In this document: in pieces, positions 13,164-57,970 of the stretch
Layout: each line of letters starts with the position of its first letter
Position numbering within the stretch: position 1 is the first letter of the stretch
Source: Candidatus Omnitrophota bacterium
GTDB lineage: Bacteria > Omnitrophota > Gorgyraeia > Tantalellales > Tantalellaceae
DNA: 64,000 nucleotides
Direction of reading: 5' to 3'
Assembly: GCA_014728045.1 (NCBI GenBank)
Contig: WJMH01000012.1
Span: 63,239 to 127,238 of the forward strand
Notes under the pieces: generated by a model
Seen by the model: only the letters and a program-made list of their open reading frames with translations
Told to the model about the DNA's origin: nothing
The model's database searches: none
Program-made: the position numbers and the translations under genes

Positions 13164-14003
13164 ATGAGTTACATAAAGACGGGTTTATTGCTGGTCGTAA
13201 TGACCTTCATTCTGATGTGGGTCGGAAGTCTCGTGGCAGGCCCCAGAGGCGTTATTATAGCTTTTATTGTAGCCATGGTGCTCAACGGGGTCAGTTACTG
13301 GTACAGTGACAAGATAGTGCTGAAGATGTACAACGCCAGGCCGTTATCATCCCGGGAGAACGCCGATATCTATTCGGTGGTGGAAGAGCTCAGCTCCAGG
13401 GCAGATATACCCGCACCCAGGGTATATATAACGGACGTTGCCGTTCCCAACGCTTTCGCGACCGGAAGAGACCCCGACAATGCCGCTTTATGCCTTACCA
13501 GGGGGCTTGTGGAATTACTGGACAAGGAGGAGCTTAAGGGCGTCATCTCCCACGAGCTTTCGCATATCAAACACCGAGATACCCTTATCATGACGGTCAC
13601 CGCGGCCATGGCGAGCGCGATAATGATGGCTGTTTACATGGCCAGATGGGCGGCCATTCTCGGCGGGTTTTCCAGGGAGAGGAATGACTCGGGTAACATC
13701 ATAGGATTATTGGCCGTAAGCATATTTGCCCCGATAGCCGCCCTTATAGTCCAGCTGGCCATATCCCGTTCGCGGGAATACGCCGCTGATACAAGGGGAG
13801 CCGAGATAGCCGGTTCCCCCGAGGGGCTCGCCAGGGCCCTGGAACAGATGGCCCGGGGCAATGAACGCACCAGATTCGACGCGGCGCCCCAGACTCAACA
13901 CCTGTTCATCGTCAAGCCGTCCGCGAATAATTTCGTTGCCAACCTGTTCAGCACGCATCCGCCTGTGGCCGAACGGGTCAAAAGACTCAGGAGCATGGCC
14001 TAA
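13164..14003 (+). CDS. htpX: HtpX-like M48 zinc metalloprotease
   Basis: Two N-terminal TM helices. Zincin motif 'HELSHIKHRD'. Two further TM helices. Length typical of HtpX. Confidence 0.85.
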   Translation: MSYIKTGLLLVVMTFILMWVGSLVAGPRGVIIAFIVAMVLNGVSYWYSDKIVLKMYNARPLSSRENADIYSVVEELSSRADIPAPRVYITDVAVPNAFATGRDPDNAALCLTRGLVELLDKEELKGVISHELSHIKHRDTLIMTVTAAMASAIMMAVYMARWAAILGGFSRERNDSGNIIGLLAVSIFAPIAALIVQLAISRSREYAADTRGAEIAGSPEGLARALEQMARGNERTRFDAAPQTQHLFIVKPSANNFVANLFSTHPPVAERVKRLRSMA

Positions 14004-15607
14004 TGCGTGGATCCAAATTTATTCTGATATTGATAGCTGTTATGCTGTTTCTGTATTTTTTCGGGCTGGGGGATATGCCCCTTACCGATCCGGATGAGAC
14101 TTTTTACGCCCAGACGGCAAAGGAGATGCTCGAAGCTGATGAGTGGGTCACTCCCATGATATTCGGCAAGCCGCAGTTCGAAAAACCCGTGCTTTACTAT
14201 CTTCTTATAGTTCTGAGTTATATGGTTTTCGGGGTTGGTGAGTTCGCAGCGAGATTCCCTTCGGCGGTTTTCGGTATTCTGGGCGTTCTGGGGGTTTATT
14301 TTTTCGGAAGGCTCCTTTTTTCGCCGCTCTGCGGGTTCCTTTCGGGGATGGTCATGGCGACCTGCGTACAGTATCTCGTCCTCGCCAGAGGTTGCGTAAC
14401 GGACATGGTGCTCTTGGTCTTTATCCTGTACACGCTTTTATTCTTTCTGATGGGATGGATGGGTAAGGGCAGGGGATATTTCTATCTCGCTTCGGTAGCT
14501 GCGGCCCTGGCGGTACTCACGAAGGGTCCGATCGGTCTATTTCTCCCCGGTCTCACGGTATTATTATTCATCCTTTTGACCAGGCAGTGGAAAAGGTTCC
14601 CGGAGATACCGCTTTTGCGGTGCATTCTCCTGCTTCTGCTGGTAAGTTTGCCCTGGTATATCGCGGTTTACCGTATGCACGGGTCGGCCTTTGTTGATGA
14701 ATTCTTCGGTTTTCATAACGTTACGCGTTTTCTGGTTCCGGAGCACAGGATAGGCACGTCGCCGTACTTCTACATACCGGTCATCCTGGGAGGGTTCTTC
14801 CCCTGGAGCACTTTTCTTCTTTTCGGTGCGTGGAACATGTGGAGACACCCCCATCCAGGATCAGCGGACTCGCGGGCAGGGAATTACAGGCTGTTCCTCT
14901 TATTATGGTTTCTTGTGGTGTTCCTTTTCTTCTCTTCATCCAGCACGAAACTCGTCACTTACATTTTTCCGCTTTTTCCGGTACTAGCGTTAGTTGCCGG
15001 GAGGTTTTGGGAGAGGTTCATCACTAGCTCGGACGAGGATGAACGAACGTCTTTTTTCATGAAGATATCCTTCTGGATCCTCGTTGGATCATCCCCGGTC
15101 GCGGCTGCCGGCGCCGTTTTTCTGGTTAGATATGAATACGCGACCACCTCAGCAGTCCAGGGCACGATAATGGCCTCCGTTCTTTATCTTCTGGCCATTA
15201 TCGTTTCGGCACTTTTCTTTCTCAAAAGGCGCAGAATGGCCTCTTTCGGCGCCATCGCTTCTTCGGTATTGGTCTGCGCTTTACCCGTGGTCTGGTTCAT
15301 TCTCCCGGTCGTGGGTGTACATGAATCCAGCAAGGAACTTTCTCTTAAGGTCAGGGAGCTCGCCTCTTCCGATGAAGCGGTGGGGGGCGAATGTGATCAC
15401 CGCCGTGGGATAGCCTTCTACTCGGGCAGGACCGATATGACGGATATACATCCTCATCAGGCCCTCAGGGATTTTTTCTCCAGGAAGGAGAGAGTGTGGG
15501 GTATAATACAGCAGAAGCATTACCGTAACCTGAAGGCAGAGATGCCCGGAAAGGTGTCCGAGCCGGTGGCCAGTTCGGGAGAATATGTTCTTATAACGAA
15601 TGAATAG
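14003..15607 (+). CDS. ArnT/PMT-family (GT39/GT83) polyprenyl-phosphate-sugar-dependent glycosyltransferase
   Basis: Multi-TM protein with N-terminal 'DPDETFYAQTAKEM' loop motif characteristic of ArnT/PMT enzymes. Start overlaps the htpX stop (TAATG). Confidence 0.75.
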   Translation: MRGSKFILILIAVMLFLYFFGLGDMPLTDPDETFYAQTAKEMLEADEWVTPMIFGKPQFEKPVLYYLLIVLSYMVFGVGEFAARFPSAVFGILGVLGVYFFGRLLFSPLCGFLSGMVMATCVQYLVLARGCVTDMVLLVFILYTLLFFLMGWMGKGRGYFYLASVAAALAVLTKGPIGLFLPGLTVLLFILLTRQWKRFPEIPLLRCILLLLLVSLPWYIAVYRMHGSAFVDEFFGFHNVTRFLVPEHRIGTSPYFYIPVILGGFFPWSTFLLFGAWNMWRHPHPGSADSRAGNYRLFLLLWFLVVFLFFSSSSTKLVTYIFPLFPVLALVAGRFWERFITSSDEDERTSFFMKISFWILVGSSPVAAAGAVFLVRYEYATTSAVQGTIMASVLYLLAIIVSALFFLKRRRMASFGAIASSVLVCALPVVWFILPVVGVHESSKELSLKVRELASSDEAVGGECDHRRGIAFYSGRTDMTDIHPHQALRDFFSRKERVWGIIQQKHYRNLKAEMPGKVSEPVASSGEYVLITNE

Positions 15608-17806: not shown

Positions 17807-18265
17807 ATGCCAAAAGAAAACACAAGTGTGGTAACTAACCGTCAGGCATACCGCGATTTTCATATAGAGAAGACTTATGAAGCCGGGTTGGAGCTCTTTG
17901 GTAATGAAGTAAAATCCCTGAGGACGGGAAACGCGAACTTAAAGGGTAGTTTCTGCAGGATAGAAGGGGGCGAGATATTCGTTCACAACATGCATATAAG
18001 CCCTTATGACTTCTCTTCCGATGAAACCGACCCTGTGAGGCCGAGAAAGCTCCTGCTGCACCGAGCGCAGATAAGGAGTCTTGGTATAAAGCTCGCGCAG
18101 CAGGGTTATACCCTGGTACCTCTAAAGGTTTATTTCAAGCGGGGGTACGCCAAGATGGAGATAGGGCTCGGCAAGGGTAAGAAACTTTACGATAAAAGGC
18201 AGGCCCTTAAGGAAAAACAGGTAAAGCGCGAAATGGACCGCATAATGCGGCATAAGAGAAGATAG
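17807..18265 (+). CDS. smpB: SsrA-binding protein SmpB
   Basis: Full-length similarity to SmpB ('GNEVKSLRTGNANLKGSFC...', C-terminal basic tail 'KRQALKEKQVKREMDRIMRHKRR'). Confidence 0.9.
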   Translation: MPKENTSVVTNRQAYRDFHIEKTYEAGLELFGNEVKSLRTGNANLKGSFCRIEGGEIFVHNMHISPYDFSSDETDPVRPRKLLLHRAQIRSLGIKLAQQGYTLVPLKVYFKRGYAKMEIGLGKGKKLYDKRQALKEKQVKREMDRIMRHKRR

Positions 18266-18276
18266 CTCTTTGATAT

Positions 18277-18662
18277 GGGGGTGACAGGACTCGACGTGTT
18301 CTTTAGGTCTTGGAGCAGCATGCAGAGGTTCCAGGTGGCCTCTTTAAAAACCTGGAAAACAATAAACGCAGACTACAATCCAGTAGCCGAAGCCGAGTCT
18401 ATCTTGGCTGAGGATGCGTTAAATGTTCCCTCTATGATGGGAACTGGTTCATTAGTTGGCGCCTTGGCCATCTAAATAGGACCTAAACTAACAAGGACTG
18501 CTGTAGTGATTTCTCCTAGCTTCAGCCAGTATCAGGAGAATGCTCCCGGAAGGTTCCCCGTCTATCGGGTCTTCCCGGAAAAGATCAATAGGTAGACTAA
18601 GCATGTAGATACTCCTCGGTCAAAGTTCCCGGACCCGGGTTCGAATCCCGGCACCTCCACCA
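18277..18662 (+). ncRNA. ssrA: tmRNA (ssrA)
   Basis: 5' GGGGGUGACAGGACUCGACG and 3' GGUUCGAAUCCCGGCACCUCCACCA form a tRNA-like acceptor and T-arm. Resume codon GCA lies about 95 nt from the 5' end. Tag ORF runs to UAA at 18476-18478. Immediately follows smpB. Confidence 0.85.
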
Positions 18663-18709
18663 ATTTTTCCAAGCATAAAGCCGATTTCCATCAGGGAGTC
18701 GGCTTTTTT
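18644..18709 (+). repeat. 66-bp direct repeat, copy 1 (tmRNA 3' end plus terminator)
   Basis: Identical to 20207-20272 ('AATCCCGGCACCTCCACCAATTTTTCCAAGCATAAAGCCGATTTCCATCAGGGAGTCGGCTTTTTT'). Confidence 0.85.
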
Positions 18710-18710
18710 A
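18676..18710 (+). terminator. intrinsic terminator of ssrA
   Basis: AAGCCGA-N14-TCGGCTT followed by T6. A second copy sits at 20239-20272 inside the downstream repeat. Confidence 0.6.
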
Positions 18711-20206
18711 TAAATCATTATAACGATGTATGCATAATTACGCATTTTACGTAATCCTGGGGATGCAGGTTAGGACTTGAGGGGTGAACAAAAATGGAGT
18801 GTATTCCAAATTAGTTGATCTATTTTGGAAATAATCGAGATTAGATATGCTGGATCGCTTTTTATGCGGAAAAAACAAGTAAATCTTGCATTTTTATAAG
18901 TTTTAAGTATACTTAAAATATATATAAAAAATAAAGGAGTTTTAAGTATGATTAAAGAATATATTAAAAGAAAACACTATCTTGATAAGGTTTCTTCTTT
19001 TATTGATAAAGATATCATTAAGGTGATCGTCGGACAGCGCCGAGTAGGGAAAAGTTACTTGTTATACCAGATAATGGATATCATCAGGGATAAAGGTGTG
19101 AAAGCCGGAAATATAATTTATATAAATAAAGAACTACATGATTTCGATGATATTAATACTTATAAAGACCTTTTGGAGTACATAGAGGGAAGGATAAAAA
19201 ATAAAAGAAAACATTATGTTTTTCTTGATGAGGTTCAGGAAATAGAAAAATTTGAAAAAGCTTTGGAAAGTATGCAGGCCTCAGGCAAGTATGATATTTA
19301 CTGCACAGGCAGTAACGCGAATCTACTTTCCGGTGAATTGGCTACTCACCTTAGCGGGCGATATGTCGAAATTAAAGTTTATGGTCTTTCATATCCTGAA
19401 TTCCTTAATTTTCATAAATTGAATAATGATCAGGAATCTCTTTTAAAGTACATCAGGTACGGTGGCCTTCCGTTCTTGATCAATCTGGAGTTCAAGGATG
19501 AGATCATCTATGAATACCTTAAGAATATTTACAGTACGATCCTTTTCAAGGACATCGTGAAAAGACATTCGATACGGAATGTAGCATTCTTAGAACGCCT
19601 GGTTGAATATCTGGCCGATAATACGGGTTCTTTGGTTTCGGCGAAAAGCATAAGTGATTTTTTAAAATCCCAGAAGATAAAACTTTCCCCCAATATTGTA
19701 TTGGATTACTTATCCTTCTTATCGTCTGCTTTTTTTGTGTTTAAAGTCCAAAGGTCTGATGTAGCAGGCAAAAAGATATTTGAGATCGGCGAAAAATATT
19801 ATTTCGAAGATCTTGGGTTAAGACATTCTGTAGTCGGATATAAACAGGTAGATATCAATAAAGTCCTGGAAAATCTTGTTTTTCTTCATCTAAAGATCTC
19901 CGGATACAAGATAACTGTGGGAAAGTTAAAAGATAAAGAAATCGATTTTGTATGCACTAGAGGCGGGGAAAAGTTATATGTACAGGTAGCATATCTAATA
20001 GATAGCCAGAAGATCATAGACAGGGAATTCGGAAATCTTTTAAAAATAGAAGATAATTATCCGAAACTTGTAGTTTCAATGGACGAGGTGGGGGGAGATA
20101 AATACAAAGGAATTGAGCAGGTTAATATAAGAAAGTTCTTAGGTAGTTTACTTTAGAAAACAGAAAAAACGTGGTGAAATGCCCCAGTTGAGCACGAAAA
20201 TAGGAA
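18710..20206 (+). mobile_element. AT-rich islet inserted at the tmRNA 3' end, bounded by 66-bp direct repeats; no integrase
   Basis: Duplication of the tmRNA terminus and lower GC than the flanks. Single cargo gene. Confidence 0.5.
18948..20156 (+). CDS. AAA-family ATPase with C-terminal DUF4143 (COG1373-type)
   Basis: Walker A 'GQRRVGKSYLL'. Walker B 'VFLDEVQ'. C-terminal block '...KEIDFVCTRGGEKLYVQVAY...' resembling DUF4143, possibly a PD-(D/E)xK-like fold. Confidence 0.7.
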   Translation: MIKEYIKRKHYLDKVSSFIDKDIIKVIVGQRRVGKSYLLYQIMDIIRDKGVKAGNIIYINKELHDFDDINTYKDLLEYIEGRIKNKRKHYVFLDEVQEIEKFEKALESMQASGKYDIYCTGSNANLLSGELATHLSGRYVEIKVYGLSYPEFLNFHKLNNDQESLLKYIRYGGLPFLINLEFKDEIIYEYLKNIYSTILFKDIVKRHSIRNVAFLERLVEYLADNTGSLVSAKSISDFLKSQKIKLSPNIVLDYLSFLSSAFFVFKVQRSDVAGKKIFEIGEKYYFEDLGLRHSVVGYKQVDINKVLENLVFLHLKISGYKITVGKLKDKEIDFVCTRGGEKLYVQVAYLIDSQKIIDREFGNLLKIEDNYPKLVVSMDEVGGDKYKGIEQVNIRKFLGSLL

Positions 20207-20272
20207 AATCCCGGCACCTCCACCAATTTTTCCAAGCATAAAGCCGATTTCCATCAGGGAGTCGGCTTTTTT
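20207..20272 (+). repeat. 66-bp direct repeat, copy 2
   Basis: Identical to 18644-18709. Confidence 0.85.
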
Positions 20273-20351: not shown

Positions 20352-21980
20352 ATGTTATACTTATATGACATGAAAAGCGGCAGAAGATTGTTGTTCCAGT
20401 TCCTCGTAATAACGCTTATCTATCTCGTGTTCGCTTTACCTAAGATGGATCAGCCGGTCACTGATGATGAGATCTACGAAATAAATAATGTCCGGCTTAT
20501 CATTGCCGGGGAAAAACCCGTAGAGTTCATTCCTTCGATTTACAACTGGGCGCTTGTTCCTTTTGTGAGGGGCTTCAACGAGCGGGTTCTGTCCGTCAGG
20601 ATGCTGGGATTATTGTGCGCATTTGCCTCTTTGGGACTTCTTCTGGTCCTTGCCAGAGGAGTCTTCGGAGAACATGATCCCAGGGTCATGGCCGCGGGCG
20701 TGTTCCTGGCCACGAGCCCCTTGTTCGTTCAGGGCAGTCTGCTCGTCCATGTTGACAGCACGTTGCTCGTAACGGCGGTTTTGTTATGGATGGTATGCCT
20801 GACGGAATTTCTGGAGGGGGGCACATTTATCCGGCGGCTCCTTCTTCTCGCGTCACTGACATTCACGCTTTTGTGCAAGTTCAGCACGCCACTATTGATA
20901 CTTCCGTTCACCCTGGGCTTTGTGTTTCTGAAAAGAAGAAAACTATTTTTCAATTATTTCCTGATCTGCGTGTTGTCGGTGTTCTCATTCTGTGCTTTAT
21001 GGTGGCTTCTCTGCCAGTTGAACACGCTTTCCTTCGGCGCTCCCTTCATCGGACTTCTTGAAAGGGGCAGGATGTATTTATCCGCGGCGGGACTTAAAAC
21101 CATACTTAATAACATGGTGATATTCTGCGCGTGGGCCTCGCCGTATCTGGTGATCGGTTCGTTTTTAATGGTTCTCTCGCTCATTAGGGATCACCCCCTC
21201 ATCAGAGACAAGCTTCTTCTTGTCGGTATTACGGCTTGTTCTATTCTGCTATATCTTGCAGTAAGCCCTATAAACCATGGATTCCCCAAATATATCCTTC
21301 CGGGGATACCTCTTATAGGCTTATTCCTCTCCGGGAATTATCTGAGAGGTATCGGCCGGGAGCGATCCAAATACCTCGCTTTGCTTCTGGGGTGCGCGGC
21401 GTATTTGATAATGATGCAGTACGATCCCGTATATCTCATAAGATTCAAATTAAGGGACATTCTGGCTTATGGAGGCGGAACGGGCATATTATACGGGCAG
21501 CTCTTTTGGCAGTCTTTGGTGTATTTGCTGCCGCTGCTTTTGTTTTTCTTTTTACGTAGGCGCATTAGGGTTCCTTTGGGCGCGGCTCTGGTCATTTTAA
21601 TAATATCCTTTAATGTTTCACTCGCGTCAAAACAGGCCCTGGCCCGGTATCAGACCAATTACAGCTATGGACAGGAGGGAGCAGAAGAACTTGAGGCTTT
21701 TCTTGATAAGAATGTGCGTGAAAGAGACAAGATAATTGCAACAAAAGAGGTGCTTTATCTCTTGGGTCGGACAGATAGTTTTTATTCGGTCAGCTTCTGG
21801 AGAAACCCTGAAGACTTTTTAGATGCCCTCAAAAGATCCCGATTCCTGGTCGTAAGCACACCTTCCCACAGCATGTATTTTTTCAGAAATGTCCTGAATG
21901 CTCCCGAAGTGCGGGATTACCTGGATAAGAACTATCGCGTTAAACGGATGGGCACTTTCATTATATACCAGAGAAGATAA
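20352..21980 (+). CDS. polytopic membrane protein, probable ArnT/PMT-like glycosyltransferase
   Basis: About 12 TM helices. N-terminal 'PKMDQPVTDDEIYEINNV' loop resembles the DE-x-Y motif of GT39/GT83. C-terminal soluble domain. Confidence 0.4.
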   Translation: MLYLYDMKSGRRLLFQFLVITLIYLVFALPKMDQPVTDDEIYEINNVRLIIAGEKPVEFIPSIYNWALVPFVRGFNERVLSVRMLGLLCAFASLGLLLVLARGVFGEHDPRVMAAGVFLATSPLFVQGSLLVHVDSTLLVTAVLLWMVCLTEFLEGGTFIRRLLLLASLTFTLLCKFSTPLLILPFTLGFVFLKRRKLFFNYFLICVLSVFSFCALWWLLCQLNTLSFGAPFIGLLERGRMYLSAAGLKTILNNMVIFCAWASPYLVIGSFLMVLSLIRDHPLIRDKLLLVGITACSILLYLAVSPINHGFPKYILPGIPLIGLFLSGNYLRGIGRERSKYLALLLGCAAYLIMMQYDPVYLIRFKLRDILAYGGGTGILYGQLFWQSLVYLLPLLLFFFLRRRIRVPLGAALVILIISFNVSLASKQALARYQTNYSYGQEGAEELEAFLDKNVRERDKIIATKEVLYLLGRTDSFYSVSFWRNPEDFLDALKRSRFLVVSTPSHSMYFFRNVLNAPEVRDYLDKNYRVKRMGTFIIYQRR

Positions 21981-51917: not shown

Positions 51918-53495
51918 ATGATTGAACGTGACCCCAGATACTACGTCACAGGTTATGACGGGAGAGATCCCTATAAAGCCCCTTTTTACATCAACGCGTT
52001 AAGTTTTGACGGGGAGGAAGGGGGTTTCAACTGTTCCCTTATAGAGAAGTTCAACGAATTCATCAGGGGACATCGGATATCTTCATCCTGCCGCCTTGAA
52101 GGTTCTTTCAAAAAAGATTCCGTAAAGGTGCCTTCCAGGATAGTTGTGGTCAACGCTTCTCACGATGACCTGCCCACCTCTTATGAGACGGCCAGGATCT
52201 TTAATGATTTCTGCAGGGAGAAAGGCTATGCCGCCGAGGCCGTTGTGGTGAACACCCGGGAACACCTGCTTAAGGAGGTCAATGTCGATCCTGAGGAGAC
52301 TTTACTGGTCAGCCAGTGTGTTGACAAGAATGTATACAACGTTGCTCTGGCAGAAGAGCTGGCCCAGAAAGGTACGGTCACCGTCCCCGGCAGGGTCACC
52401 GCCCCGGGAAGCGTGTTCTCCGATAAGGACAGCACCTATCGGTTGCTTTCCGAGGAGGGAAGCGATTGGAGCAAGGTAGCAAGATATGTAAAGGTGCCCG
52501 TGGAGGGAAAGAGCGTCGAAGAGGTTGTTGATGAACTTTTCCAGGCGGTGGACGAGCTTGAACAGTTGACCGGGGATATTACATTCTTCGTTAAGCCTCA
52601 TGAAGGCGGCGGCGGACTGGGGGGTTTTCGCATAACCAAGGTGAAGGAGGGGTACATAATACCGGATCTATCCAAGGTTTCCGGGGACCTCTCCGAAATA
52701 CACCCGACCTTCATTGATTTCGACCTTTCCAGCGAGGCCAAATTAAGGGAGCTTTTGTGGATATACAGGCTTTTCGCAGGCAATGATAAAATGTCGGAAA
52801 ACTATTTGAAGGTTAAACTTCCCGTTATGAACAAGGACCAGACCGAAGCTATCGGTATCCTGAAAGAGTACCTCGCCGGCAGCGAGATAAAAAGGCACAA
52901 AAAACTTGCCGGTATGGTGCTCAGTCCGGAGAAAGCCCGCAGCACGCTGGTGGAGGCGATAAAGATCTTCGAAAAGAAGTTCTACAGAAGATATGTGCCG
53001 CTTGTTAACGAGCATATAGATTTCGGATTATGGGGATTGAGGGCCCATTACAGGCTTTCCACCGAAGGGCCCAGACTGGAGACGATGTATCACCGAATTT
53101 TCCAGCTCGGGTTCACCGAGGAAGGCCTGGGGTACGTGGGGTCGGATAATATCTCTAATAAACAGACCGGGGATCTTGAGATCACCAGGCTGGGACCGGT
53201 TAACCCGATAATGCTCGAGGCCATAGGAGGAGAGCAGGCGCTTTTTGATTCGCTGTTAAAGGGCGCAGAAGCTTTGGCCGAACTCAATGATCTTCTTGCG
53301 GATGAGGAGAAAGGATCCGTTCCGCTCAGGCTGCAGTTGGACCTGGCGACGATATCCCGCCGTATCGGAGAGGGCAATGCCGATACCGCACGGGGATTAT
53401 GCCTGGCCTCGCGCTGGTCTGATTTCGTGCGTAACGCCCGCCAGTGGCTTGAGGACAGCCTTGTGTATTATACAAAAGTAAAGGAGTCCGGTTGA
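51918..53495 (+). CDS. second ATP-grasp-like protein (tentative)
   Basis: 'ITFFVKPHEGGGGLGGFRI' Gly-rich loop reminiscent of ATP-grasp. The remainder is divergent. Confidence 0.35.
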   Translation: MIERDPRYYVTGYDGRDPYKAPFYINALSFDGEEGGFNCSLIEKFNEFIRGHRISSSCRLEGSFKKDSVKVPSRIVVVNASHDDLPTSYETARIFNDFCREKGYAAEAVVVNTREHLLKEVNVDPEETLLVSQCVDKNVYNVALAEELAQKGTVTVPGRVTAPGSVFSDKDSTYRLLSEEGSDWSKVARYVKVPVEGKSVEEVVDELFQAVDELEQLTGDITFFVKPHEGGGGLGGFRITKVKEGYIIPDLSKVSGDLSEIHPTFIDFDLSSEAKLRELLWIYRLFAGNDKMSENYLKVKLPVMNKDQTEAIGILKEYLAGSEIKRHKKLAGMVLSPEKARSTLVEAIKIFEKKFYRRYVPLVNEHIDFGLWGLRAHYRLSTEGPRLETMYHRIFQLGFTEEGLGYVGSDNISNKQTGDLEITRLGPVNPIMLEAIGGEQALFDSLLKGAEALAELNDLLADEEKGSVPLRLQLDLATISRRIGEGNADTARGLCLASRWSDFVRNARQWLEDSLVYYTKVKESG

Positions 53496-55198
53496 ATTCG
53501 GTCTACATAACAATATTTTCTATTCTGGTCTTGTGGGCGGCTTATCACTTTTACGGTAATTACATAGCCAGGAAGGTGTTCCGTGCCAGGAGGGACAACC
53601 CCGTGCCCAGCGAAGAGCTGAGAGACGATGTGGACTACGTGCCCACGAACAGGGAAGTGCTTTTCGGTCACCATTTCGCTTCGATAGCGGGTACCGGCCC
53701 CATTGTAGGACCCGCCATAGCCGTTATCTGGGGATGGGTGCCCGCGCTTATCTGGATACTGGTTGGTTCAATTTTCGCGGGCGCGGTTCATGACTACGCT
53801 TCCTTGATGATGTCCACCCGGAAAAAAGGCGTATCCATCGGTGAGCTCTCAAAAGGGGTCATCAGCCCACGGGTCAGGACGCTTTTTCTTTTCGTTATAC
53901 TGTTCGCCCTGTGGATAGTCGTCGCCATATTCGGGATGGTGATGGCGGTAATATTCAAGATGTACCCGCAAGCGGTGTTCCCGGTGTGGATACAGATACC
54001 GATAGCGGTATCTGTGGGATGGCTGGCGTACCGCAAAAAGTGGAATATGACGGTAATGTCCATCGTCGCGGTGGTCCTTATGTACGCGTCCATAATTGTC
54101 GGGGTCAGCATGCCGCTCAGCATGCCCGGACTTTTCGGTCTTACGCCCATGGCCATGTGGATAATAGTGCTTTTTATCTACGCGTACATAGCCTCGGTGT
54201 TGCCTGTCTGGACACTTTTACAACCACGCGATTACGTTAATTCGCACCAGCTGATAGTTGGTATAATTCTTATAGTGCTTGGTATCTTTTTCGCGCATCC
54301 GGTGATGGTCGCCCCGGCCGTACAGCTCGCGCCCGACGGGGCTCCGCCCATACTGCCGTTCCTTTTTATAACCATCGCCTGCGGGGCCATCAGCGGTTTT
54401 CATTCGCTGGTCAGTTCCGGCACCAGCTCAAAACAGCTGAAGAACGAGGAGGATGTTCATTTTGTGGCATACGGCGGCATGCTCGCAGAGGGCCTTGTCG
54501 GAGTGCTTGTTGTGGTGGCAGTGGCCGCGGGGATAGGTATTTTCGCGAAAACAGCCACCGGTGAGGTGCTGAGTGGAAGCGCCGCGTGGGAGTATCATTA
54601 CTCGAGCTGGGAAGCGGCTCGGGGGCTTACCGCGAAGGTAGCCGCTTTCGTTAACGGCTCGGCCAACATGCTTACGGCCCTGGGGATCCCGCTTGAGTAC
54701 GGACAGGCCGTTATTGGCGTTCTCATCGCTTCTTTTGCCGGTACTACTCTCGATACGGCCACCCGTATACAAAGGTACGTGGTGACGGAGCTGGCGGTCG
54801 ATTATAAAATCAAACCTATGCAGAAAAGGTATCCCGCGACTGCTCTTGTTGTCCTTGCCGCGGCGGCTCTTGCCTTCAGTGAAGGAAGCGGCAAGGGGGC
54901 GCTGCTTTTATGGCCGCTTTTCGGTATAAGCAACCAGCTTCTGGCGGGACTGGTTCTGCTTGTTGCGACGATATACATCATCAAGGAGGAGAGGACCAAT
55001 GCCTGGACAACAGGCGTACCGATGATATTCATGATAATCACATCCAGCTGGGCGATGACGGTAGGGCTTGTTAATTTCTATAATACGGGATCGCATCTCA
55101 GGTTCGTTATCGGCAGCATGCTGTTCCTGTTGGAGATATGGATGATAATCGAGGCGGTTTTATACCTTCAAAGAAGAAAGAAAGGCGAGCGCCTGTAG
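53492..55198 (+). CDS. cstA: carbon starvation protein A (CstA-family peptide/pyruvate transporter)
   Basis: Polytopic membrane protein. N-terminus 'VLWAAYHFYGNYIARKVF' and overall CstA architecture. Stop overlaps the downstream tRNA by about 10 nt. Confidence 0.8.
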   Translation: MNSVYITIFSILVLWAAYHFYGNYIARKVFRARRDNPVPSEELRDDVDYVPTNREVLFGHHFASIAGTGPIVGPAIAVIWGWVPALIWILVGSIFAGAVHDYASLMMSTRKKGVSIGELSKGVISPRVRTLFLFVILFALWIVVAIFGMVMAVIFKMYPQAVFPVWIQIPIAVSVGWLAYRKKWNMTVMSIVAVVLMYASIIVGVSMPLSMPGLFGLTPMAMWIIVLFIYAYIASVLPVWTLLQPRDYVNSHQLIVGIILIVLGIFFAHPVMVAPAVQLAPDGAPPILPFLFITIACGAISGFHSLVSSGTSSKQLKNEEDVHFVAYGGMLAEGLVGVLVVVAVAAGIGIFAKTATGEVLSGSAAWEYHYSSWEAARGLTAKVAAFVNGSANMLTALGIPLEYGQAVIGVLIASFAGTTLDTATRIQRYVVTELAVDYKIKPMQKRYPATALVVLAAAALAFSEGSGKGALLLWPLFGISNQLLAGLVLLVATIYIIKEERTNAWTTGVPMIFMIITSSWAMTVGLVNFYNTGSHLRFVIGSMLFLLEIWMIIEAVLYLQRRKKGERL

Positions 55199-55265
55199 CT
55201 CAGCTGGATAGAGCAACTGGCTTCGAACCAGTAGGTCGCAGGTTCAAGTCCTGCCGGGCGCGCCA
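55189..55265 (+). tRNA. tRNA-Arg (anticodon TCG)
   Basis: Acceptor GCGCCTG/CGGGCGC (one GU pair), anticodon loop CTTCGAA, T-loop TTCAAGT, CCA. Confidence 0.8.
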
Positions 55266-55281
55266 TAAAAAGGGGACAATA

Positions 55282-56934
55282 ATGAAAGTGACCATAGCGC
55301 AGATAGATCCGGTCATAGGAGATATTGACGGCAACCTTAAAAAGATCGTGGATGTTTTCTGTGACCATGCCAAGCGAACGGATCTTGTAGTCTTTCCGGA
55401 GCTATCTGTTACCGGATATCCTCCGCGTGACCTTTTGGAAAAGCCGGGTTTCATAGAAAAGGCGCAGGAAGCCCTGCGCGAACTCGAGCAGATCTCAGGC
55501 AAATATCCGACCAGTGGCATGATCGTCGGTTCGCCTGTACCTACCGGTAAAAAAACAGGCAAGGGGCTTTACAATTCAGCCGTTCTGATACATGGGGGAA
55601 AGGTGCTCGGCTCCAGCAGCAAGACGCTTCTTCCCGCCTATGATGTGTTTGACGAGACGCGCTACTTTGAGCCCGCTCCCGAGCCGGCTGTTATTCCATT
55701 CAAGGGGGAGATGCTGGGCATCTCCGTTTGCGAGGACATGTGGACGGCGGATGAGCTCTGGCCGAGAATGGTTTACGGGTGCGACCCGATCGAGAAACTT
55801 AAAGAAAACGGAGCGACGATACTCATCAACGTTTCGGCATCGCCTTTTTACGCGGGCAAGGAAAAGATCAGGTATGACCTTATAAAAAGCCATGCGATCA
55901 AACACGGCAAGCCTTTCATTTTCGTGAACCAGGTGGGTGGTAACGATGAGCTTGTCTTTGACGGCAGGAGCCTTTCGGTGGACGCGCAGGGTGAACCGCT
56001 CGCCGTGCTTTCACCTTTTACCGAACAAATCAAGACGGTGGATACATCTGGTCGGGCCAGCGAGGGAAGTTACTCCCCCCAGGATGAGATAGAATCCGTT
56101 TACCAGGCCCTGGTGCTGGGACTGACCGATTACATGTCCAAATGCGGTTTCAGGGAGGCGGTAATAGGCCTCTCGGGCGGGATAGATTCGGCCGTTGTCA
56201 GCTGTATAGCCGCCGACGCCATAGGGCCGGAGAACGTGCTGGGCATCACCATGCCTTCGGAATATACCTCAGAGGAAACCGAGAATTATTCTAAGCAGCT
56301 TGCCTCGAACCTGGGTATATCCTTCAGGGTGATACCAATTAACGATATATATACCTCCTATCTAAAAGCTCTTAAGAACGACATTGAGCCGGAGGATGAG
56401 ACAGACCTGGGTATAACCTTCCAGAACATACAGGCGAGGGTAAGGGGTAATATCCTGATGGCCTTTTCCAATCGGTACGGTCATCTTTTGCTCAGTACGG
56501 GCAATAAAAGCGAACTGGCCGTTGGATACTGCACGCTCTACGGTGATATGGCAGGAGGTCTTGCCCTTATATCCGATGTCCCCAAGACGATGATATACAA
56601 AATGGCTGGATATATAAACAGGAAAAAGAAGCTTATCCCGCAAGAGATAATCGACAGGCCTCCTTCTGCTGAGCTGAAGCCGGGGCAGCTGGACCAGGAT
56701 ACCCTGCCGCCTTATGATAAACTTGATGAGGTGCTTTACCGGTATCTGGACGAGGGAGAGTCCCCGAGAAAACTTATCTCCAGCGGTCTGGACGGAAAGC
56801 TCGTGAACTGGGTGGTAAGGAGCGTCAGCAGGAACGAGTATAAAAGAAGGCAGGCCCCTCCCGGGATCAAAGTGACCAGCAAGGCCTTCGGTTCAGGCAG
56901 GAGAATGCCAATTGCCGCCAGGTACACCGAATAA
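55282..56934 (+). CDS. nadE: glutamine-dependent NAD+ synthetase
   Basis: N-terminal CN-hydrolase domain ('MKVTIAQIDPVIGD') and C-terminal NAD synthetase P-loop 'SGGIDSAVV'. The ORF track start at 55138 runs through the tRNA and is rejected. Confidence 0.9.
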   Translation: MKVTIAQIDPVIGDIDGNLKKIVDVFCDHAKRTDLVVFPELSVTGYPPRDLLEKPGFIEKAQEALRELEQISGKYPTSGMIVGSPVPTGKKTGKGLYNSAVLIHGGKVLGSSSKTLLPAYDVFDETRYFEPAPEPAVIPFKGEMLGISVCEDMWTADELWPRMVYGCDPIEKLKENGATILINVSASPFYAGKEKIRYDLIKSHAIKHGKPFIFVNQVGGNDELVFDGRSLSVDAQGEPLAVLSPFTEQIKTVDTSGRASEGSYSPQDEIESVYQALVLGLTDYMSKCGFREAVIGLSGGIDSAVVSCIAADAIGPENVLGITMPSEYTSEETENYSKQLASNLGISFRVIPINDIYTSYLKALKNDIEPEDETDLGITFQNIQARVRGNILMAFSNRYGHLLLSTGNKSELAVGYCTLYGDMAGGLALISDVPKTMIYKMAGYINRKKKLIPQEIIDRPPSAELKPGQLDQDTLPPYDKLDEVLYRYLDEGESPRKLISSGLDGKLVNWVVRSVSRNEYKRRQAPPGIKVTSKAFGSGRRMPIAARYTE

Positions 56935-56947
56935 ATGGTCCTGGCAG

Positions 56948-56976
56948 TTGCAATTTTACGGCTTTCATGATATAAA
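56948..56976 (+). promoter_or_regulatory. sigma70-like promoter (TTGCAA-N17-TATAAA) upstream of the GH130 gene
   Basis: Hexamers at 56948-56953 and 56971-56976; RBS GGAG 8 nt before the ATG. Confidence 0.35.
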
Positions 56977-57019
56977 ATGCTCTACCTGAAAATATACCTC
57001 GACAAGAAAAGGAGTCATC

Positions 57020-57970
57020 ATGGCGAACGAAAGTGTCCTGAAAAGGTATAAGGGCAACCCCATAATCACCGCCAGCGCGGTACCCAGGGCCAACAGTATA
57101 CATAACAGCGCTGTAGTCCCTTTTGAAGACGGATATGCGGGGATATTCCGCGTGGACGAAATAGACTTCAATTTCACCATGCACGTGGGTTTCAGCAAGG
57201 ACGGTATCAAGTGGGATATAGAACCGGATATACTGAAGATGGAGTGCGACGACGAATATCTCAGGATAACCGACAGGACCTATGATCCCAGGCTTACAAA
57301 GATAGGCGATACGTATTATTTCACCTGGTGTCTGGATTCGCCCCAGGGGCCAGTGATAGGAATGGCAACCACCAAGGATTTCAAAAGGTTCGAACAGAAA
57401 GAGAACCTGACGCTGCCGGCGAACAGGAACTGCGTTATCTTCCCCCGGAAGATAAACGGTAAGTATGCCATGCTCAGCAGGCCGAGCGACAGAGGGCACA
57501 CTCCCTTCGGGGACATGTTCTTCTCCTCGAGCCCTGACCTTGTCAACTGGGGCTGTCACCGTTTCGTTTTCGGTACCACCAGGAGCAGCTGGCAATCCAC
57601 TAAGATAGGCCCCGGTCCGGCGCCGATAGAGACCGAGCATGGGTGGCTTCTGATCTACCACGGCGTTTGGACGAGCTGTAACGGCTACCTTTATTACGCC
57701 GGCGGGGCGATACTGGACCTTGAAGAACCCTGGAAGGTCCTTTACAGGACAAAGGATTACCTCCTTGCCCCTTCGGAACCGTATGAAAGGGTGGGGGATG
57801 TCCCTAACGTTGTCTTCCCCAGTTCGGCGATAGTCAATGACGGCACGATCCGTATTTATTACGGATGCGCCGATACATGTATATCCATAGCCGAGGGGGA
57901 GATCGAAGAAGTGATCGATTATATAAAGACCCATAGCTATGAAGCCACGGGAGGCTATAAAAGGGCTTGA
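57020..57970 (+). CDS. GH130-family glycosidase / beta-mannoside phosphorylase
   Basis: 'NPIITASAVP...NSAVVPFEDGYAGIFRVD' N-terminus and 5-bladed propeller-sized protein typical of GH130. Confidence 0.7.
   Translation: MANESVLKRYKGNPIITASAVPRANSIHNSAVVPFEDGYAGIFRVDEIDFNFTMHVGFSKDGIKWDIEPDILKMECDDEYLRITDRTYDPRLTKIGDTYYFTWCLDSPQGPVIGMATTKDFKRFEQKENLTLPANRNCVIFPRKINGKYAMLSRPSDRGHTPFGDMFFSSSPDLVNWGCHRFVFGTTRSSWQSTKIGPGPAPIETEHGWLLIYHGVWTSCNGYLYYAGGAILDLEEPWKVLYRTKDYLLAPSEPYERVGDVPNVVFPSSAIVNDGTIRIYYGCADTCISIAEGEIEEVIDYIKTHSYEATGGYKRA

What the first reader, a model, noticed from the sequence alone, without database searches (positions are those of the whole stretch)
18644..20272. Minimal islet integrated into the 3' end of tmRNA, flanked by 66-bp perfect direct repeats and carrying a single COG1373-type AAA ATPase with DUF4143
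- **Repeat structure.** The last 19 nt of ssrA plus its terminator (66 bp in total) occur twice as perfect direct repeats, at 18644-18709 and 20207-20272.
- **What lies between.** The roughly 1.5 kb between the copies is visibly AT-rich compared with the flanks. It holds one gene, for an ATPase (Walker A GQRRVGKSY, Walker B VFLDEV) whose C-terminal domain resembles DUF4143.
- **Interpretation.** This is the signature of site-specific integration into the ssrA 3' end, a classic island attachment site. No integrase remains, so the element is a decayed or satellite-type islet.
- **Why the cargo matters.** COG1373 ATPases are widespread, poorly characterised, and to my recollection have been listed among gene families enriched in defence islands. 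Their DUF4143 domain has been suggested to be nuclease-like. A single-gene cargo delivered to an integration hotspot is a reasonable candidate for an uncharacterised one-gene phage-defence or abortive-infection module.
Basis: partly seen in the sequence, partly recalled or inferred. Interest (0 to 1): 0.7.

Follow-up and report, generated by a model that had tools for sequence, protein, structure and literature searches.

The report
Single-gene mobile cassette behind tmRNA
A 1.5-kb piece of foreign DNA carrying one self-regulated ATPase-nuclease gene (the very common but untested defence candidate PDC-S01) sits just behind the tmRNA gene between two perfect 66-base repeats, and relatives of this gene turn out to move between genomes in the same way, as bare promoter-plus-gene units.

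Summary
A perfect 66-nt direct repeat (18644-18709 and 20207-20272; the last 19 nt of ssrA plus its terminator) brackets a low-GC 1497-bp insert with one ORF (18948-20156, AAA_14 + DUF4143).

- The repeat starts inside the tmRNA T-loop, a canonical integrase crossover site.
- A 91%-identical copy from another metagenome (L081) is also flanked by the ssrA core, so this is a real insertion at ssrA.
- The insert has no integrase, and none of the ORFs examined within about 10 kb is one.

"Decayed island" is not the best reading.
- A 94%-identical copy (L082) has a different right flank.
- Across 160 homologue loci, near-identical genes share only about 55-170 bp upstream and 0-130 bp downstream.
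- 22% of loci are bracketed by direct repeats of local host sequence, against 6% of control ORFs.
- The promoter-plus-ORF cassette itself is therefore the mobile unit. This resembles the "insertion with long target duplication" described for restriction-modification genes.

The cargo is already catalogued as PADLOC candidate PDC-S01. It combines an Orc1/Cdc6-like AAA+ domain, a probable winged helix and a restriction-endonuclease fold. Defence is unproven, and PDC-S01 was not among the candidates that protected E. coli in one published trial.

Verdict: a new member of known kinds, of moderate interest.

The parts
17807..18265 (+). smpB, the host gene upstream of ssrA
   Evidence: Pfam SmpB, 2.6e-56
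18277..18662 (+). ssrA (tmRNA), intact; its 3' end lies inside the left repeat
   Evidence: RF00023, 162.8 bits, full model 1-374; ARAGORN
18644..18709 (+). Left copy of the 66-nt direct repeat: T-loop bases AAT, T-stem 3' strand, acceptor 3' strand, ACCA, then 47 nt with the terminator hairpin (18677-18706)
   Evidence: sequence; structure line
18710..18879 (+). Non-coding left arm of the insert. It is shared with L081 from 18750 and with L082 from 18787, and is absent from the 77%-identical cassette in L083.
18886..18913 (+). Promoter-like TTGCAT, 16 nt, TATACT. This is my reading; the consensus scan did not call it because the -35 matches only 3 of 6.
   Evidence: Sequence; conserved in L081, L082 and L083; for the negative scan
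18901..18918 (.). Perfect palindrome TTTTAAGTATACTTAAAA centred on the -10 hexamer; putative operator for autoregulation
   Evidence: (I5). A palindrome with arms of 8 nt or more occurs in 85% of 153 homologue upstream regions against 42% of shuffles, commonly ending 28-31 bp before the ATG.
18940..18957 (.). Second, imperfect copy of the palindrome (TTTTAAGTATGATTAAAG) overlapping the start codon
   Evidence: D3, I3; conserved GGAGTTTTAAnTATGATTAAA in L015, L081 and L083
18948..20156 (+). PDC-S01 gene, 402 aa: AAA+ ATPase (about 1-160), helical lid (about 162-207), probable winged helix (about 212-290), restriction-endonuclease-fold domain (about 300-402)
20157..20206 (+). Non-coding right tail of the insert. 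It is shared with L081 throughout and with L082 to about 20182. It has no terminator of its own, so the right repeat supplies one.
20207..20272 (+). Right copy of the 66-nt repeat: displaced ssrA 3' fragment plus terminator (hairpin 20240-20269)
20352..21980 (+). Host gene downstream, a 542-aa membrane protein whose distant homologues carry PMT_2. It marks the far side of the insertion site.

Best explanation
Window 18710-20206 is a horizontally acquired, self-contained single-gene cassette inserted directly behind ssrA. It consists of its own promoter with a palindromic operator, the ORF, and short non-coding arms.

**How it got there (inferred).** Insertion happened by a single reciprocal recombination inside the tmRNA 3' end, between the chromosome and a circular form of the cassette. 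That circle carried the same 66 nt, meaning the ssrA end plus this lineage's own terminator. The result regenerates an intact, terminated ssrA on the left and leaves a displaced copy on the right. The crossover was catalysed either by a tyrosine integrase supplied in trans, acting at the T-loop core, or by homologous recombination over the 66-nt arm. I rate the two about equally likely.

**What the unit is (shown).** The cassette is not a remnant of a bigger island. In this gene family, promoter plus ORF is the unit that moves, and about a fifth of copies are bracketed by duplications of local host sequence. The same pattern has been described for restriction-modification genes as "insertion with long target duplication".

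**What the protein does (inferred).** It has an Orc1/Cdc6-like AAA+ ATPase, a probable winged helix and a restriction-endonuclease-fold domain, and belongs to PADLOC candidate family PDC-S01. Most likely it is an ATP-dependent DNA-binding nuclease that represses its own promoter through the palindrome. It would act on DNA either as a stand-alone restriction- or abortive-infection-like defence, or as a selfish, restriction-enzyme-like gene.

**Status of each step.** Shown: anatomy, foreign origin, family membership, folds and cassette-wise mobility. Inferred: the recombination route, autoregulation, nuclease activity and defence.
For: **Insertion at ssrA**
- Perfect 66-nt repeat that starts in the T-loop.
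- GC of 0.28-0.38 against about 0.5 in the flanks.
- L081 carries a 91%-identical cassette between two ssrA cores of 22 and 16 nt. Its left core is not preceded by a tmRNA body, and its right core is followed by an 81%-identical terminator.

**No recombinase in cis**
- Only one ORF lies between the repeats.
- The 14 neighbouring ORFs scanned within about 10 kb comprise 11 with housekeeping-type Pfam domains and 3 with no Pfam hit; none is an integrase or transposase.

**The cassette is the mobile unit**
- L082 (94% identical) shares only 18787-20182 and then diverges into an unrelated right flank.
- L083 (77.5% nt) shares only 18880-20156 and sits after nadE.
- Among 394 locus pairs with 85% or more gene identity, those that are not the same locus lose homology about 54-170 bp upstream and 0-130 bp downstream, although kilobases of flank are available.

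**Flanking duplications in the family**
- Exact repeats of 20 nt or more: 10 of 62 homologue loci against 1 of 142 control ORFs.
- BLAST-level repeats: 29 of 134 against 11 of 183, odds ratio 4.3, p = 5e-5.
- The repeats are local host sequence: a tRNA-Lys 3' half, and the 3' or 5' ends of neighbouring genes, 24-1078 bp long.
- In L075 (5 of 5) and L055 (4 of 4) the differences between the repeat copies are all synonymous. In L032, 960 identical bases are followed by a diverged stretch. This fits recombination between diverged alleles rather than a filled-in target duplication.

**Horizontal spread**
- 67-75% amino-acid identity across Omnitrophota, Patescibacteria, Desulfobacterota, Nitrospirota and Elusimicrobiota.
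- Gene GC is below flank GC in nearly all loci.

**Protein**
- PDLC04787, 6e-153.
- E308, E331, Q346, R359, E360 and K373 are invariant and D333 nearly so.

**Operator**
-.

**Precedent**
- Furuta et al. 2010, PMC2853133.
Against: - **No empty site.** The downstream gene has no homologue above 34% identity, and the ssrA-terminator pattern was not found in metagenome contigs. Insertion polarity and the target duplication are therefore inferred, not seen.
- **No circular form.** None was found; the short cassette-length contigs are linear.
- **No helper integrase.** None is known, and the window cannot show the rest of the genome.
- **Most copies lack repeats.** Only about a fifth of family members have flanking repeats. 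Some of those repeats are dispersed intergenic repeats rather than target duplications (L002, L039, L041, L077).
- **The synonymous-difference signal is partial.** It holds for two loci; others are mixed.
- **The active site is atypical.** The canonical (D/E)xK lysine is not in place (beta-3 reads YVQVAY), so catalytic activity is not assured.
- **Defence is untested for this protein.** PDC-S01 was not among the four of eight candidates that protected E. coli B against T4, T5 or T7.
- **Model quality.** The full-length AF2 model is only moderate (pLDDT 67.9), and residues 258-301 are poorly predicted.
Confidence: 0.62

Rival explanations
1. Decayed remnant, or cis-mobilisable element (CIME), of a larger integrase-bearing island or prophage. 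That element integrated site-specifically at the ssrA T-loop and later lost everything except one cargo gene.
For: - The repeat boundary lies in the T-loop, a canonical crossover sublocation, and tmRNA is the most enriched island target (PMC4383910).
- L081 shows two ssrA cores, the left one following unrelated DNA, as in tandem arrays of elements at one att site.
- TGCATAA-like repeats in the left arms of the window and L081 could be arm-type binding sites.
Against: - There are no gene fragments in the 238-bp and 50-bp arms.
- The near-identical cassette in L082 ends about 26 bp after the stop codon and continues into unrelated DNA.
- The family-wide minimal shared unit is promoter plus ORF, with repeats of many different host sequences. 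Independent decay would have to reach the same end-point many times.
- 47 nt of host-specific terminator are duplicated here but not in L081.
Confidence: 0.2
2. Selfish nuclease gene. The PDC-S01 protein itself provokes its own spread, for example by making double-strand breaks whose repair installs the cassette with a long duplication, or by post-segregational killing. This would match the virus-like life cycle proposed for restriction-modification systems. Defence would be secondary or absent.
For: - The same flanking-duplication pattern as restriction-modification genes, with no other mobility gene.
- Extreme abundance and inter-phylum transfer.
- Tight palindromic operators at the -10 hexamer and the start codon suggest a toxic product kept low.
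- PDC-S01 was not among the candidates that protected in a phage test.
Against: - No conserved cassette ends or inverted repeats that a protein could recognise.
- Differences between repeat copies look like allelic divergence, which points to ordinary recombination with an imported arm.
- There is no partner methylase or antitoxin.
- There is no experimental hint of mobility.
- 78% of copies have no repeats.
Confidence: 0.13
3. Assembly artefact. A free 1.56-kb circle, or DNA from another strain, sharing 66 nt with the chromosome was threaded into the contig by the assembler.
For: A 66-nt exact repeat is shorter than or close to the common k-mer sizes of metagenome assemblers, and the window comes from a metagenome-assembled genome (name given).
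Against: - An independent assembly from another sample (L081) shows the same cassette joined to an ssrA core and terminator on the right.
- Many other assemblies show analogous repeat-flanked copies.
- Even if true, the element would still carry the att-like 66 nt.
Confidence: 0.04

Closest known systems
Genomic islands in tRNA/tmRNA genes (Islander definition; Hudson, Lau & Williams 2015, PMC4383910)
   Same: There is an intact tmRNA gene regenerated at one end and a displaced 3' fragment in the same orientation at the other. The identity block starts in the T-loop. The content is low-GC and foreign.
   Different: There is no integrase, which Islander's filters require. The insert is only 1.5 kb with one gene. 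The identity block runs 47 nt past the gene end and copies the host's own terminator.
"Insertion with long target duplication" of restriction-modification genes (Furuta, Abe & Kobayashi 2010, PMC2853133)
   Same: A nuclease-type gene unit with no mobility gene is bracketed by direct repeats longer than 30 bp of local target sequence, at gene ends or tRNA genes. Repeat lengths vary, and flanking repeats are more frequent than for average genes.
   Different: The cargo is a single AAA+/PD-(D/E)xK protein without a methylase. No empty site is available to prove the duplication. In some relatives the two repeat copies differ like alleles.
PADLOC phage-defence candidate PDC-S01 (COG1373; AAA_14 + DUF4143)
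   Same: Full-length HMM match at 6e-153, with the same domain architecture of an ATPase fused to a PD-(D/E)xK domain.
   Different: Nothing differs at the family level. The family itself has no shown function.
Cis-mobilisable elements (CIMEs) and other integrase-less satellites that use a helper's integrase
   Same: att-like repeats flank a unit that lacks recombination genes. L081 suggests a tandem arrangement with another element at the same site.
   Different: No helper is identified. Relatives use many unrelated target sequences, which a single helper integrase would not explain. This comparison rests on my knowledge of the CIME concept, not on a paper read here.
McrBC-type and Avs/STAND-type NTPase-plus-nuclease defence proteins
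   Different: This is a single 402-aa chain with an Orc1/Cdc6-like core and a probable winged helix. There is no sensor repeat domain and no sequence-level relation.

Membership tests
tDNA-integrated genomic island (Islander criteria) | Intact tRNA or tmRNA gene at one end | tested here: met
   RF00023 full-length, 162.8 bits, at 18277-18662
tDNA-integrated genomic island (Islander criteria) | Displaced fragment of the same tDNA, in the same orientation, at the other end | tested here: met
   20207-20225 equals the last 19 nt of ssrA, + strand
tDNA-integrated genomic island (Islander criteria) | Crossover at a canonical sublocation (anticodon loop, T-loop or junction) | tested here: met
   Identity starts at the 5th base of the T-loop. 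The L081 copies start at loop bases 2 and 7.
tDNA-integrated genomic island (Islander criteria) | Integrase gene inside the island | tested here: not met
   The only ORF is AAA_14/DUF4143. No integrase was found among the 14 ORFs scanned within about 10 kb.
PADLOC PDC-S01 | Match to a PDC-S01 profile over the full length | tested here: met
   PDLC04787, E = 6.1e-153, residues 1-399 on profile positions 6-407 of 412
PADLOC PDC-S01 | Protects against phage | not testable with these tools
   The literature describes validation as pending (PMC12988326). PDC-S01 was not among the protective candidates in E. coli B against T4, T5 and T7.
PD-(D/E)xK nuclease superfamily | alpha-beta-beta-beta-alpha-beta core fold | tested here: met
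PD-(D/E)xK nuclease superfamily | Catalytic motif: acidic residue at the start of beta-2 and (D/E)xK in beta-3 | tested here: inconclusive
   E308, E331, Q346, R359, E360 and K373 are invariant and D333 is present in at least 90% of sequences. Beta-3 reads YVQVAY with no lysine. A displaced active site of the NgoMIV/Cfr10I kind is possible but was not tested.
Insertion with long target duplication (Furuta 2010) | Direct repeats longer than 30 bp flanking a gene unit with no mobility gene | tested here: met
   66 nt at 100% identity; a single non-mobility ORF
Insertion with long target duplication (Furuta 2010) | Empty site in a related genome that holds one copy of the repeat | tested here: inconclusive
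   No close relative was found: best homologue of the downstream gene is 34% identical, and the DNA pattern gave 0 hits. An attempt at L075 failed because synteny is not conserved.
Classical transposon / insertion sequence | Conserved ends or terminal inverted repeats, and a short target duplication of fixed length | tested here: not met
   No conserved or inverted termini in 17 repeat-flanked cassettes. Repeat lengths run from 16 to 1078 bp.

The most novel reading that the evidence does not exclude
PDC-S01 genes are not primarily host defence genes but autonomous selfish cassettes. The AAA+/winged-helix/nuclease protein would itself drive, or strongly stimulate, insertion of its promoter-plus-ORF unit with long duplications of whatever host sequence it lands in, including tRNA and tmRNA ends. 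No integrase or transposase would be needed. That would make it a new, recombinase-free kind of mobile element. It would also explain why PDC-S01 is among the most abundant "defence candidates" and why it is found embedded in other systems.
Probability: 0.1. Interest if true: 0.85.

Novelty: new member of a known kind. Interest (0 to 1): 0.45.

Why it matters
PDC-S01 is reported as the fourth most common "defence system" call in prokaryotes and the most frequent single locus in rumen genomes, yet nothing is known about what it does or how it spreads.

This window gives a clean, minimal example: one gene, its own operator-controlled promoter, and perfect repeats at a textbook integration site. 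The comparison of 160 loci shows that the family travels as bare promoter-plus-gene cassettes, often with long duplications of host sequence.

That links it to an unexplained mode of gene mobility so far described for restriction-modification systems. It also yields testable items:
- the operator sequence;
- the putative active-site residues;
- a defined 1.4-kb mobile unit;
- a defined attachment sequence.

It also cautions against reading every PDC-S01 hit as immunity.

Tried and rejected
**Empty-site searches (all failed)**
- Homologues of the downstream 542-aa gene reach only 34% identity at best.
- An exact or IUPAC DNA pattern for the ssrA end plus terminator gave 0 hits in metagenome contigs.
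- For relative L075, the closest genomes do not keep the mutS / T9SS-gene synteny.
- The look-up of encoding contigs has no record of the window's own protein.

**Other searches that found nothing**
- Circular intermediates: cassette-length contigs (L085, L092-L094, L082) have no terminal overlap and are simply truncated copies of a fixed locus.
- Conserved cassette ends or inverted repeats: none.
- tRNA-fragment repeats at loci with an adjacent tRNA: none at the two such loci checked (L020, L021; the script stopped before the rest). Only L015 has one.
- Plasmid homologues (Acinetobacter, Bacteroides): no flanking repeats.
- IMG/VR: the cassette's conserved 5' motif is absent. The single hit to the ssrA end is a phage-borne permuted tmRNA, not an attP next to an integrase.
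- NCBIfam, PHROGs and PDB by sequence: no hits.

**Ideas considered and dropped**
- That the left arm is a relic of a permuted tmRNA. ARAGORN makes a "tmRNA*" call and there is a 31-bit Rfam hit. I rejected it because the hit is below threshold, rests mostly on the true ssrA 3' end, and is absent from L081 and L082.
- That the cassette is a mini-replicon, with an Orc/Cdc6-like initiator next to repeats flanking an AT-rich stretch. No evidence beyond fold resemblance, so I did not pursue it.

**Limited check**
- Scanning neighbours of repeat-flanked relatives for integrases is uninformative by design, because the repeat-bounded segments hold only the one gene. The Pfam summary of 62 neighbouring ORFs showed no recombinase among the 25 families listed out of 80.
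Full report
**1.

The window contains exactly two copies of a 66-nt sequence, 100% identical, at 18644-18709 and 20207-20272. Its 16-nt core occurs nowhere else in 64 kb, against 0.03 expected by chance.

Rfam and ARAGORN place a full-length tmRNA at 18277-18662, directly after smpB (17807-18265). The repeat is therefore the last 19 nt of ssrA plus 47 nt that include the terminator hairpin. From the Rfam structure line, the T-loop is TTCGAAT at 18640-18646, so the repeat starts at the fifth loop base.

The 1497 bp in between are the only strongly AT-rich patch of the window: GC 0.28-0.38 against about 0.5. They hold one real ORF, 18948-20156, 402 aa, with Walker A and B motifs and the Pfam domains AAA_14 and DUF4143.

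**2. It is an insertion at ssrA, seen independently elsewhere**

Two short contigs from other samples carry near-identical copies.

- **L081** is 91% identical over window 18750-20272.
  - On its right, the cassette abuts CCCGGCACCTCCACCA followed by a terminator only 81% identical to the window's. This is the ssrA end of a related host.
  - On its left, 266 bp further out than in the window, lies a second ssrA end (TCGAATCCCGGCACCTCCACCA). It is preceded by unrelated DNA, not by a tmRNA body.
  - In that genome the cassette therefore sits between two att-like cores, probably in tandem with another element, and the terminator is not duplicated.
  - All three identity boundaries (window, L081 left, L081 right) fall inside the T-loop. 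This is one of the canonical crossover sublocations of tyrosine integrases, and tmRNA is their most enriched target (PMC4383910).
- **L082** is 94% identical. It shares only 18787-20182 and then continues into unrelated sequence with no ssrA core.

The same cassette thus exists with at least two different right-hand flanks.

**3. No recombinase, and not a decayed island**

Nothing but the ATPase gene lies between the repeats, and the 238-bp and 50-bp arms contain no ORF fragments.

Fourteen ORFs within about 10 kb were scanned against Pfam.
- Eleven carry housekeeping-type domains: M48 peptidase, glycosyltransferases, YdjC, SmpB, a histidine kinase, a response regulator, a P-type ATPase and transketolase.
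- Three have no Pfam hit.
- None is an integrase or transposase.

A classical attP would also not be expected to carry 47 nt identical to this lineage's own terminator. That part of the duplication must have arisen within this lineage. One route is a circle that had picked up core plus terminator by imprecise excision, followed by reintegration. Another is homologous recombination over the 66-nt arm. This step is inference.

**4. The family moves as promoter-plus-ORF cassettes**

The protein has thousands of close homologues, at 67-75% identity, in Omnitrophota, Patescibacteria, Desulfobacterota, Nitrospirota, Elusimicrobiota, Marinimicrobia and others. I fetched 160 loci.

- **(a) Composition.** Gene GC is below flank GC almost everywhere.
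- **(b) Sharp boundaries.** Among 394 locus pairs with 85% or more nucleotide identity in the gene, pairs that are not the same locus lose homology about 54-170 bp upstream of the ATG and 0-130 bp after the stop, although kilobases were available. One example is L142/L143: 98.8% identical, with 168 bp and 133 bp shared. The related Omnitrophota contig L083 shares only window 18880-20156, sits after nadE, and is followed by a defence-island-like region.
- **(c) A conserved palindrome.** Upstream regions carry a palindrome centred on the -10 hexamer, TTTTAAGTATACTTAAAA in the window at 18901-18918.
  - Arms of 8 nt or more occur in 85% of 153 upstream regions against 42% of shuffles.
  - Arms of 9 nt or more occur in 65% against 18%.
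  - The palindrome commonly ends 28-31 bp before the ATG, and its sequence differs between lineages.
  - A second, imperfect copy overlaps the start codon.
  - I read this as an autoregulated promoter. That is inference.
- **(d) Flanking repeats are enriched.**
  - Exact repeats of 20 nt or more within 600 bp on each side occur at 10 of 62 loci against 1 of 142 control ORFs.
  - With BLAST-level repeats the figures are 29 of 134 against 11 of 183, odds ratio 4.3, p = 5e-5.
  - In the tight cases the downstream copy starts 18-60 bp after the stop and the upstream copy ends 60-360 bp before the ATG.
- **(e) The repeats are local host sequence, different at each locus.**
  - The 3' half of tRNA-Lys from the anticodon loop (L015).
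  - The 3' ends of upstream genes (L075 mutS-like, L043, L048, L007).
  - The 5' ends of downstream genes (L055, L044).
  - A whole ORF of about 380 aa (L032, 1078 bp).
- **(f) No conserved ends.** The cassettes have no conserved termini or inverted repeats.
- **(g) Allele-like differences.** In L075, 5 of 5 differences between the repeat copies are synonymous, and in L055, 4 of 4. L044 and L007 show conservative replacements. In L032, 960 identical bases are followed by 17 clustered differences. At least in these loci the two copies differ like two functional alleles joined by a crossover, not like a freshly filled-in target duplication that later decayed. Other loci are mixed, and some repeats are dispersed intergenic repeats (L002, L039, L041, L077).

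**5. What this resembles**

Furuta, Abe and Kobayashi described restriction-modification gene units of all types, including a single mcrA gene. These units are inserted with long, variable target duplications of about 45 to about 420 bp in their tables (their cut-off was more than 30 bp), with no other mobility gene. The duplications often lie at gene ends or tRNA genes, and flanking repeats are more frequent than for average genes. The mechanism is unknown (PMC2853133).

The PDC-S01 cassettes, including the one in this window, fit that description. The ssrA and tRNA-Lys cases also fit integrase action in trans. I cannot separate the two routes with the data available.

**6. The protein**

PADLOC's PDC-S01 profile matches over the full length (6e-153). 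NCBIfam, PHROGs and PDB-by-sequence give nothing.

- **Separate model of residues 290-402** (pLDDT 78.3, pTM 0.74). It matches restriction endonucleases and relatives: R.BspD6I 8.6, NgoMIV 8.5, AF1548 8.5, XisH-like 2okf 8.4, HindIII 8.2, FokI 8.0, Can2 8.0, NucS 7.9, McrC 7.1, Hjc 6.7 and TnsA 6.0.
- **Literature.** This agrees with the listing of DUF4143 as a PD-(D/E)XK family of unknown function (PMC3424549).
- **Active site.** E308, E331, Q346, R359, E360 and K373 are invariant and D333 nearly so. However, beta-3 lacks the canonical lysine, so catalysis is plausible but unproven.

**7. Function**

PDC-S01 comes from PADLOC's list of untested candidates (10.1101/2024.01.29.577857). It is reported as the fourth most common defence call in prokaryotes, with validation pending (PMC12988326), and as the most frequent single locus in rumen genomes (PMC13356809).

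In one study it was among eight candidates tested in E. coli B against T4, T5 and T7 and was not among the four that protected.

My preferred reading is an ATP-dependent, DNA-binding nuclease under tight self-repression. It would act as a stand-alone restriction- or abortive-infection-like module. A selfish, restriction-enzyme-like gene whose nuclease activity favours its own retention or spread is a serious alternative.

**8. Verdict**

The finding is real and the site-specific flavour of the insertion is right. The cargo is a known candidate family, and the element is better described as a mobile single-gene cassette than as a decayed island.

As a specimen it is a new member of known kinds: a tmRNA-site islet, PDC-S01, and insertion with long target duplication. 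The family-level pattern of bare promoter-plus-ORF units, operator-controlled and often bracketed by host duplications, is the most useful product of this check. I found no description of it for PDC-S01 in the papers I could search.

The missing empty site and the unknown recombination enzyme are the main gaps.

Noticed in passing
L081 1964-2256: A group II intron 5' part (RF02001, 157.5 bits, at 2049-2221; GTGCGCCC begins at about 1966) starts 2-3 nt after the T-run of the ssrA terminator in the related host. From my own knowledge, this is the kind of site used by terminator-targeting (class C) group II introns.
   Followed up: partly
L183 6413-6715 (IMG/VR UViG_3300032151_000299): A phage-like contig with ribonucleotide reductase genes carries a permuted two-piece tmRNA (RF04321, 89.1 bits). 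The 32-nt 3' end of its acceptor piece is identical to window 18631-18662. No integrase was seen on the 7-kb contig.
   Followed up: partly
window 18568-18990 and 18759-18780: ARAGORN calls a second, permuted "tmRNA*", and Rfam gives a sub-threshold tmRNA_permuted hit (31.3 bits at 18631-18776). The left arm contains GGGGATGCAGG...GGACTTGA, which resembles a tmRNA 5' end and is kept in L081. L081 and L082 give no such Rfam hit, so it is probably an artefact of the true ssrA 3' end.
   Followed up: partly
window 18368-18475: From the position that Rfam aligns with the usual resume codon (GCA, 18368-18370), the tmRNA tag frame stays open for 35 codons (ADYNPVAEAESILAEDALNVPSMMGTGSLVGALAI*). ARAGORN reports only the last 16. 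This is either an unusually long tag or an uncertain resume point.
   Followed up: no
L083 9900-21209, compared with window 56934-57020: A related Omnitrophota contig is syntenic with window 52992-56920 (cstA, tRNA-Arg, nadE). After nadE it has a variable, defence-island-like region with two PDC-S01 genes, ATPase_2+DUF234, SLFN_AlbA_2, a Polbeta nucleotidyltransferase, a TnpB-like fragment and YhcG. The window has none of this after nadE.
   Followed up: partly
window 20166-20177; L081 about 1845-1868; L082 about 1417-1440: The 12-nt unit AAAACGTGGTGA just after the stop codon is single in the window but tandemly duplicated in L081 and L082.
   Followed up: no
L032 107-1184 and 2481-3558: A Bdellovibrionales homologue sits between two copies of a 1078-bp segment holding an ORF of about 380 aa. 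The first 960 bp are identical, followed by 17 clustered differences, and a third partial copy lies further downstream.
   Followed up: partly
plasmid collection (for example NZ_CP026423.1, 11444-12676): 224 plasmid records hold a homologue, at 52.8% identity or less among those listed. Of these, 173 are Acinetobacter plasmids at about 36% identity. No flanking repeats were seen in the two records examined.
   Followed up: partly
window 14003-15607 and 20352-21980: Two large PMT_2-type membrane glycosyltransferase-like genes lie on either side of the smpB-ssrA locus. The second gives no Pfam hit itself, but four of its five homologues (31-34% identity) carry PF13231.
   Followed up: no
L176 2935-2968 (Bacteroides plasmid pCACC737_6): The same type of palindrome (ATTCAATTATAATTGAAAT) precedes the Bacteroides homologue. 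That gene sits next to TonB-dependent-receptor (SusC-like) gene fragments, which hints at an insertion into a polysaccharide-utilisation locus.
   Followed up: no
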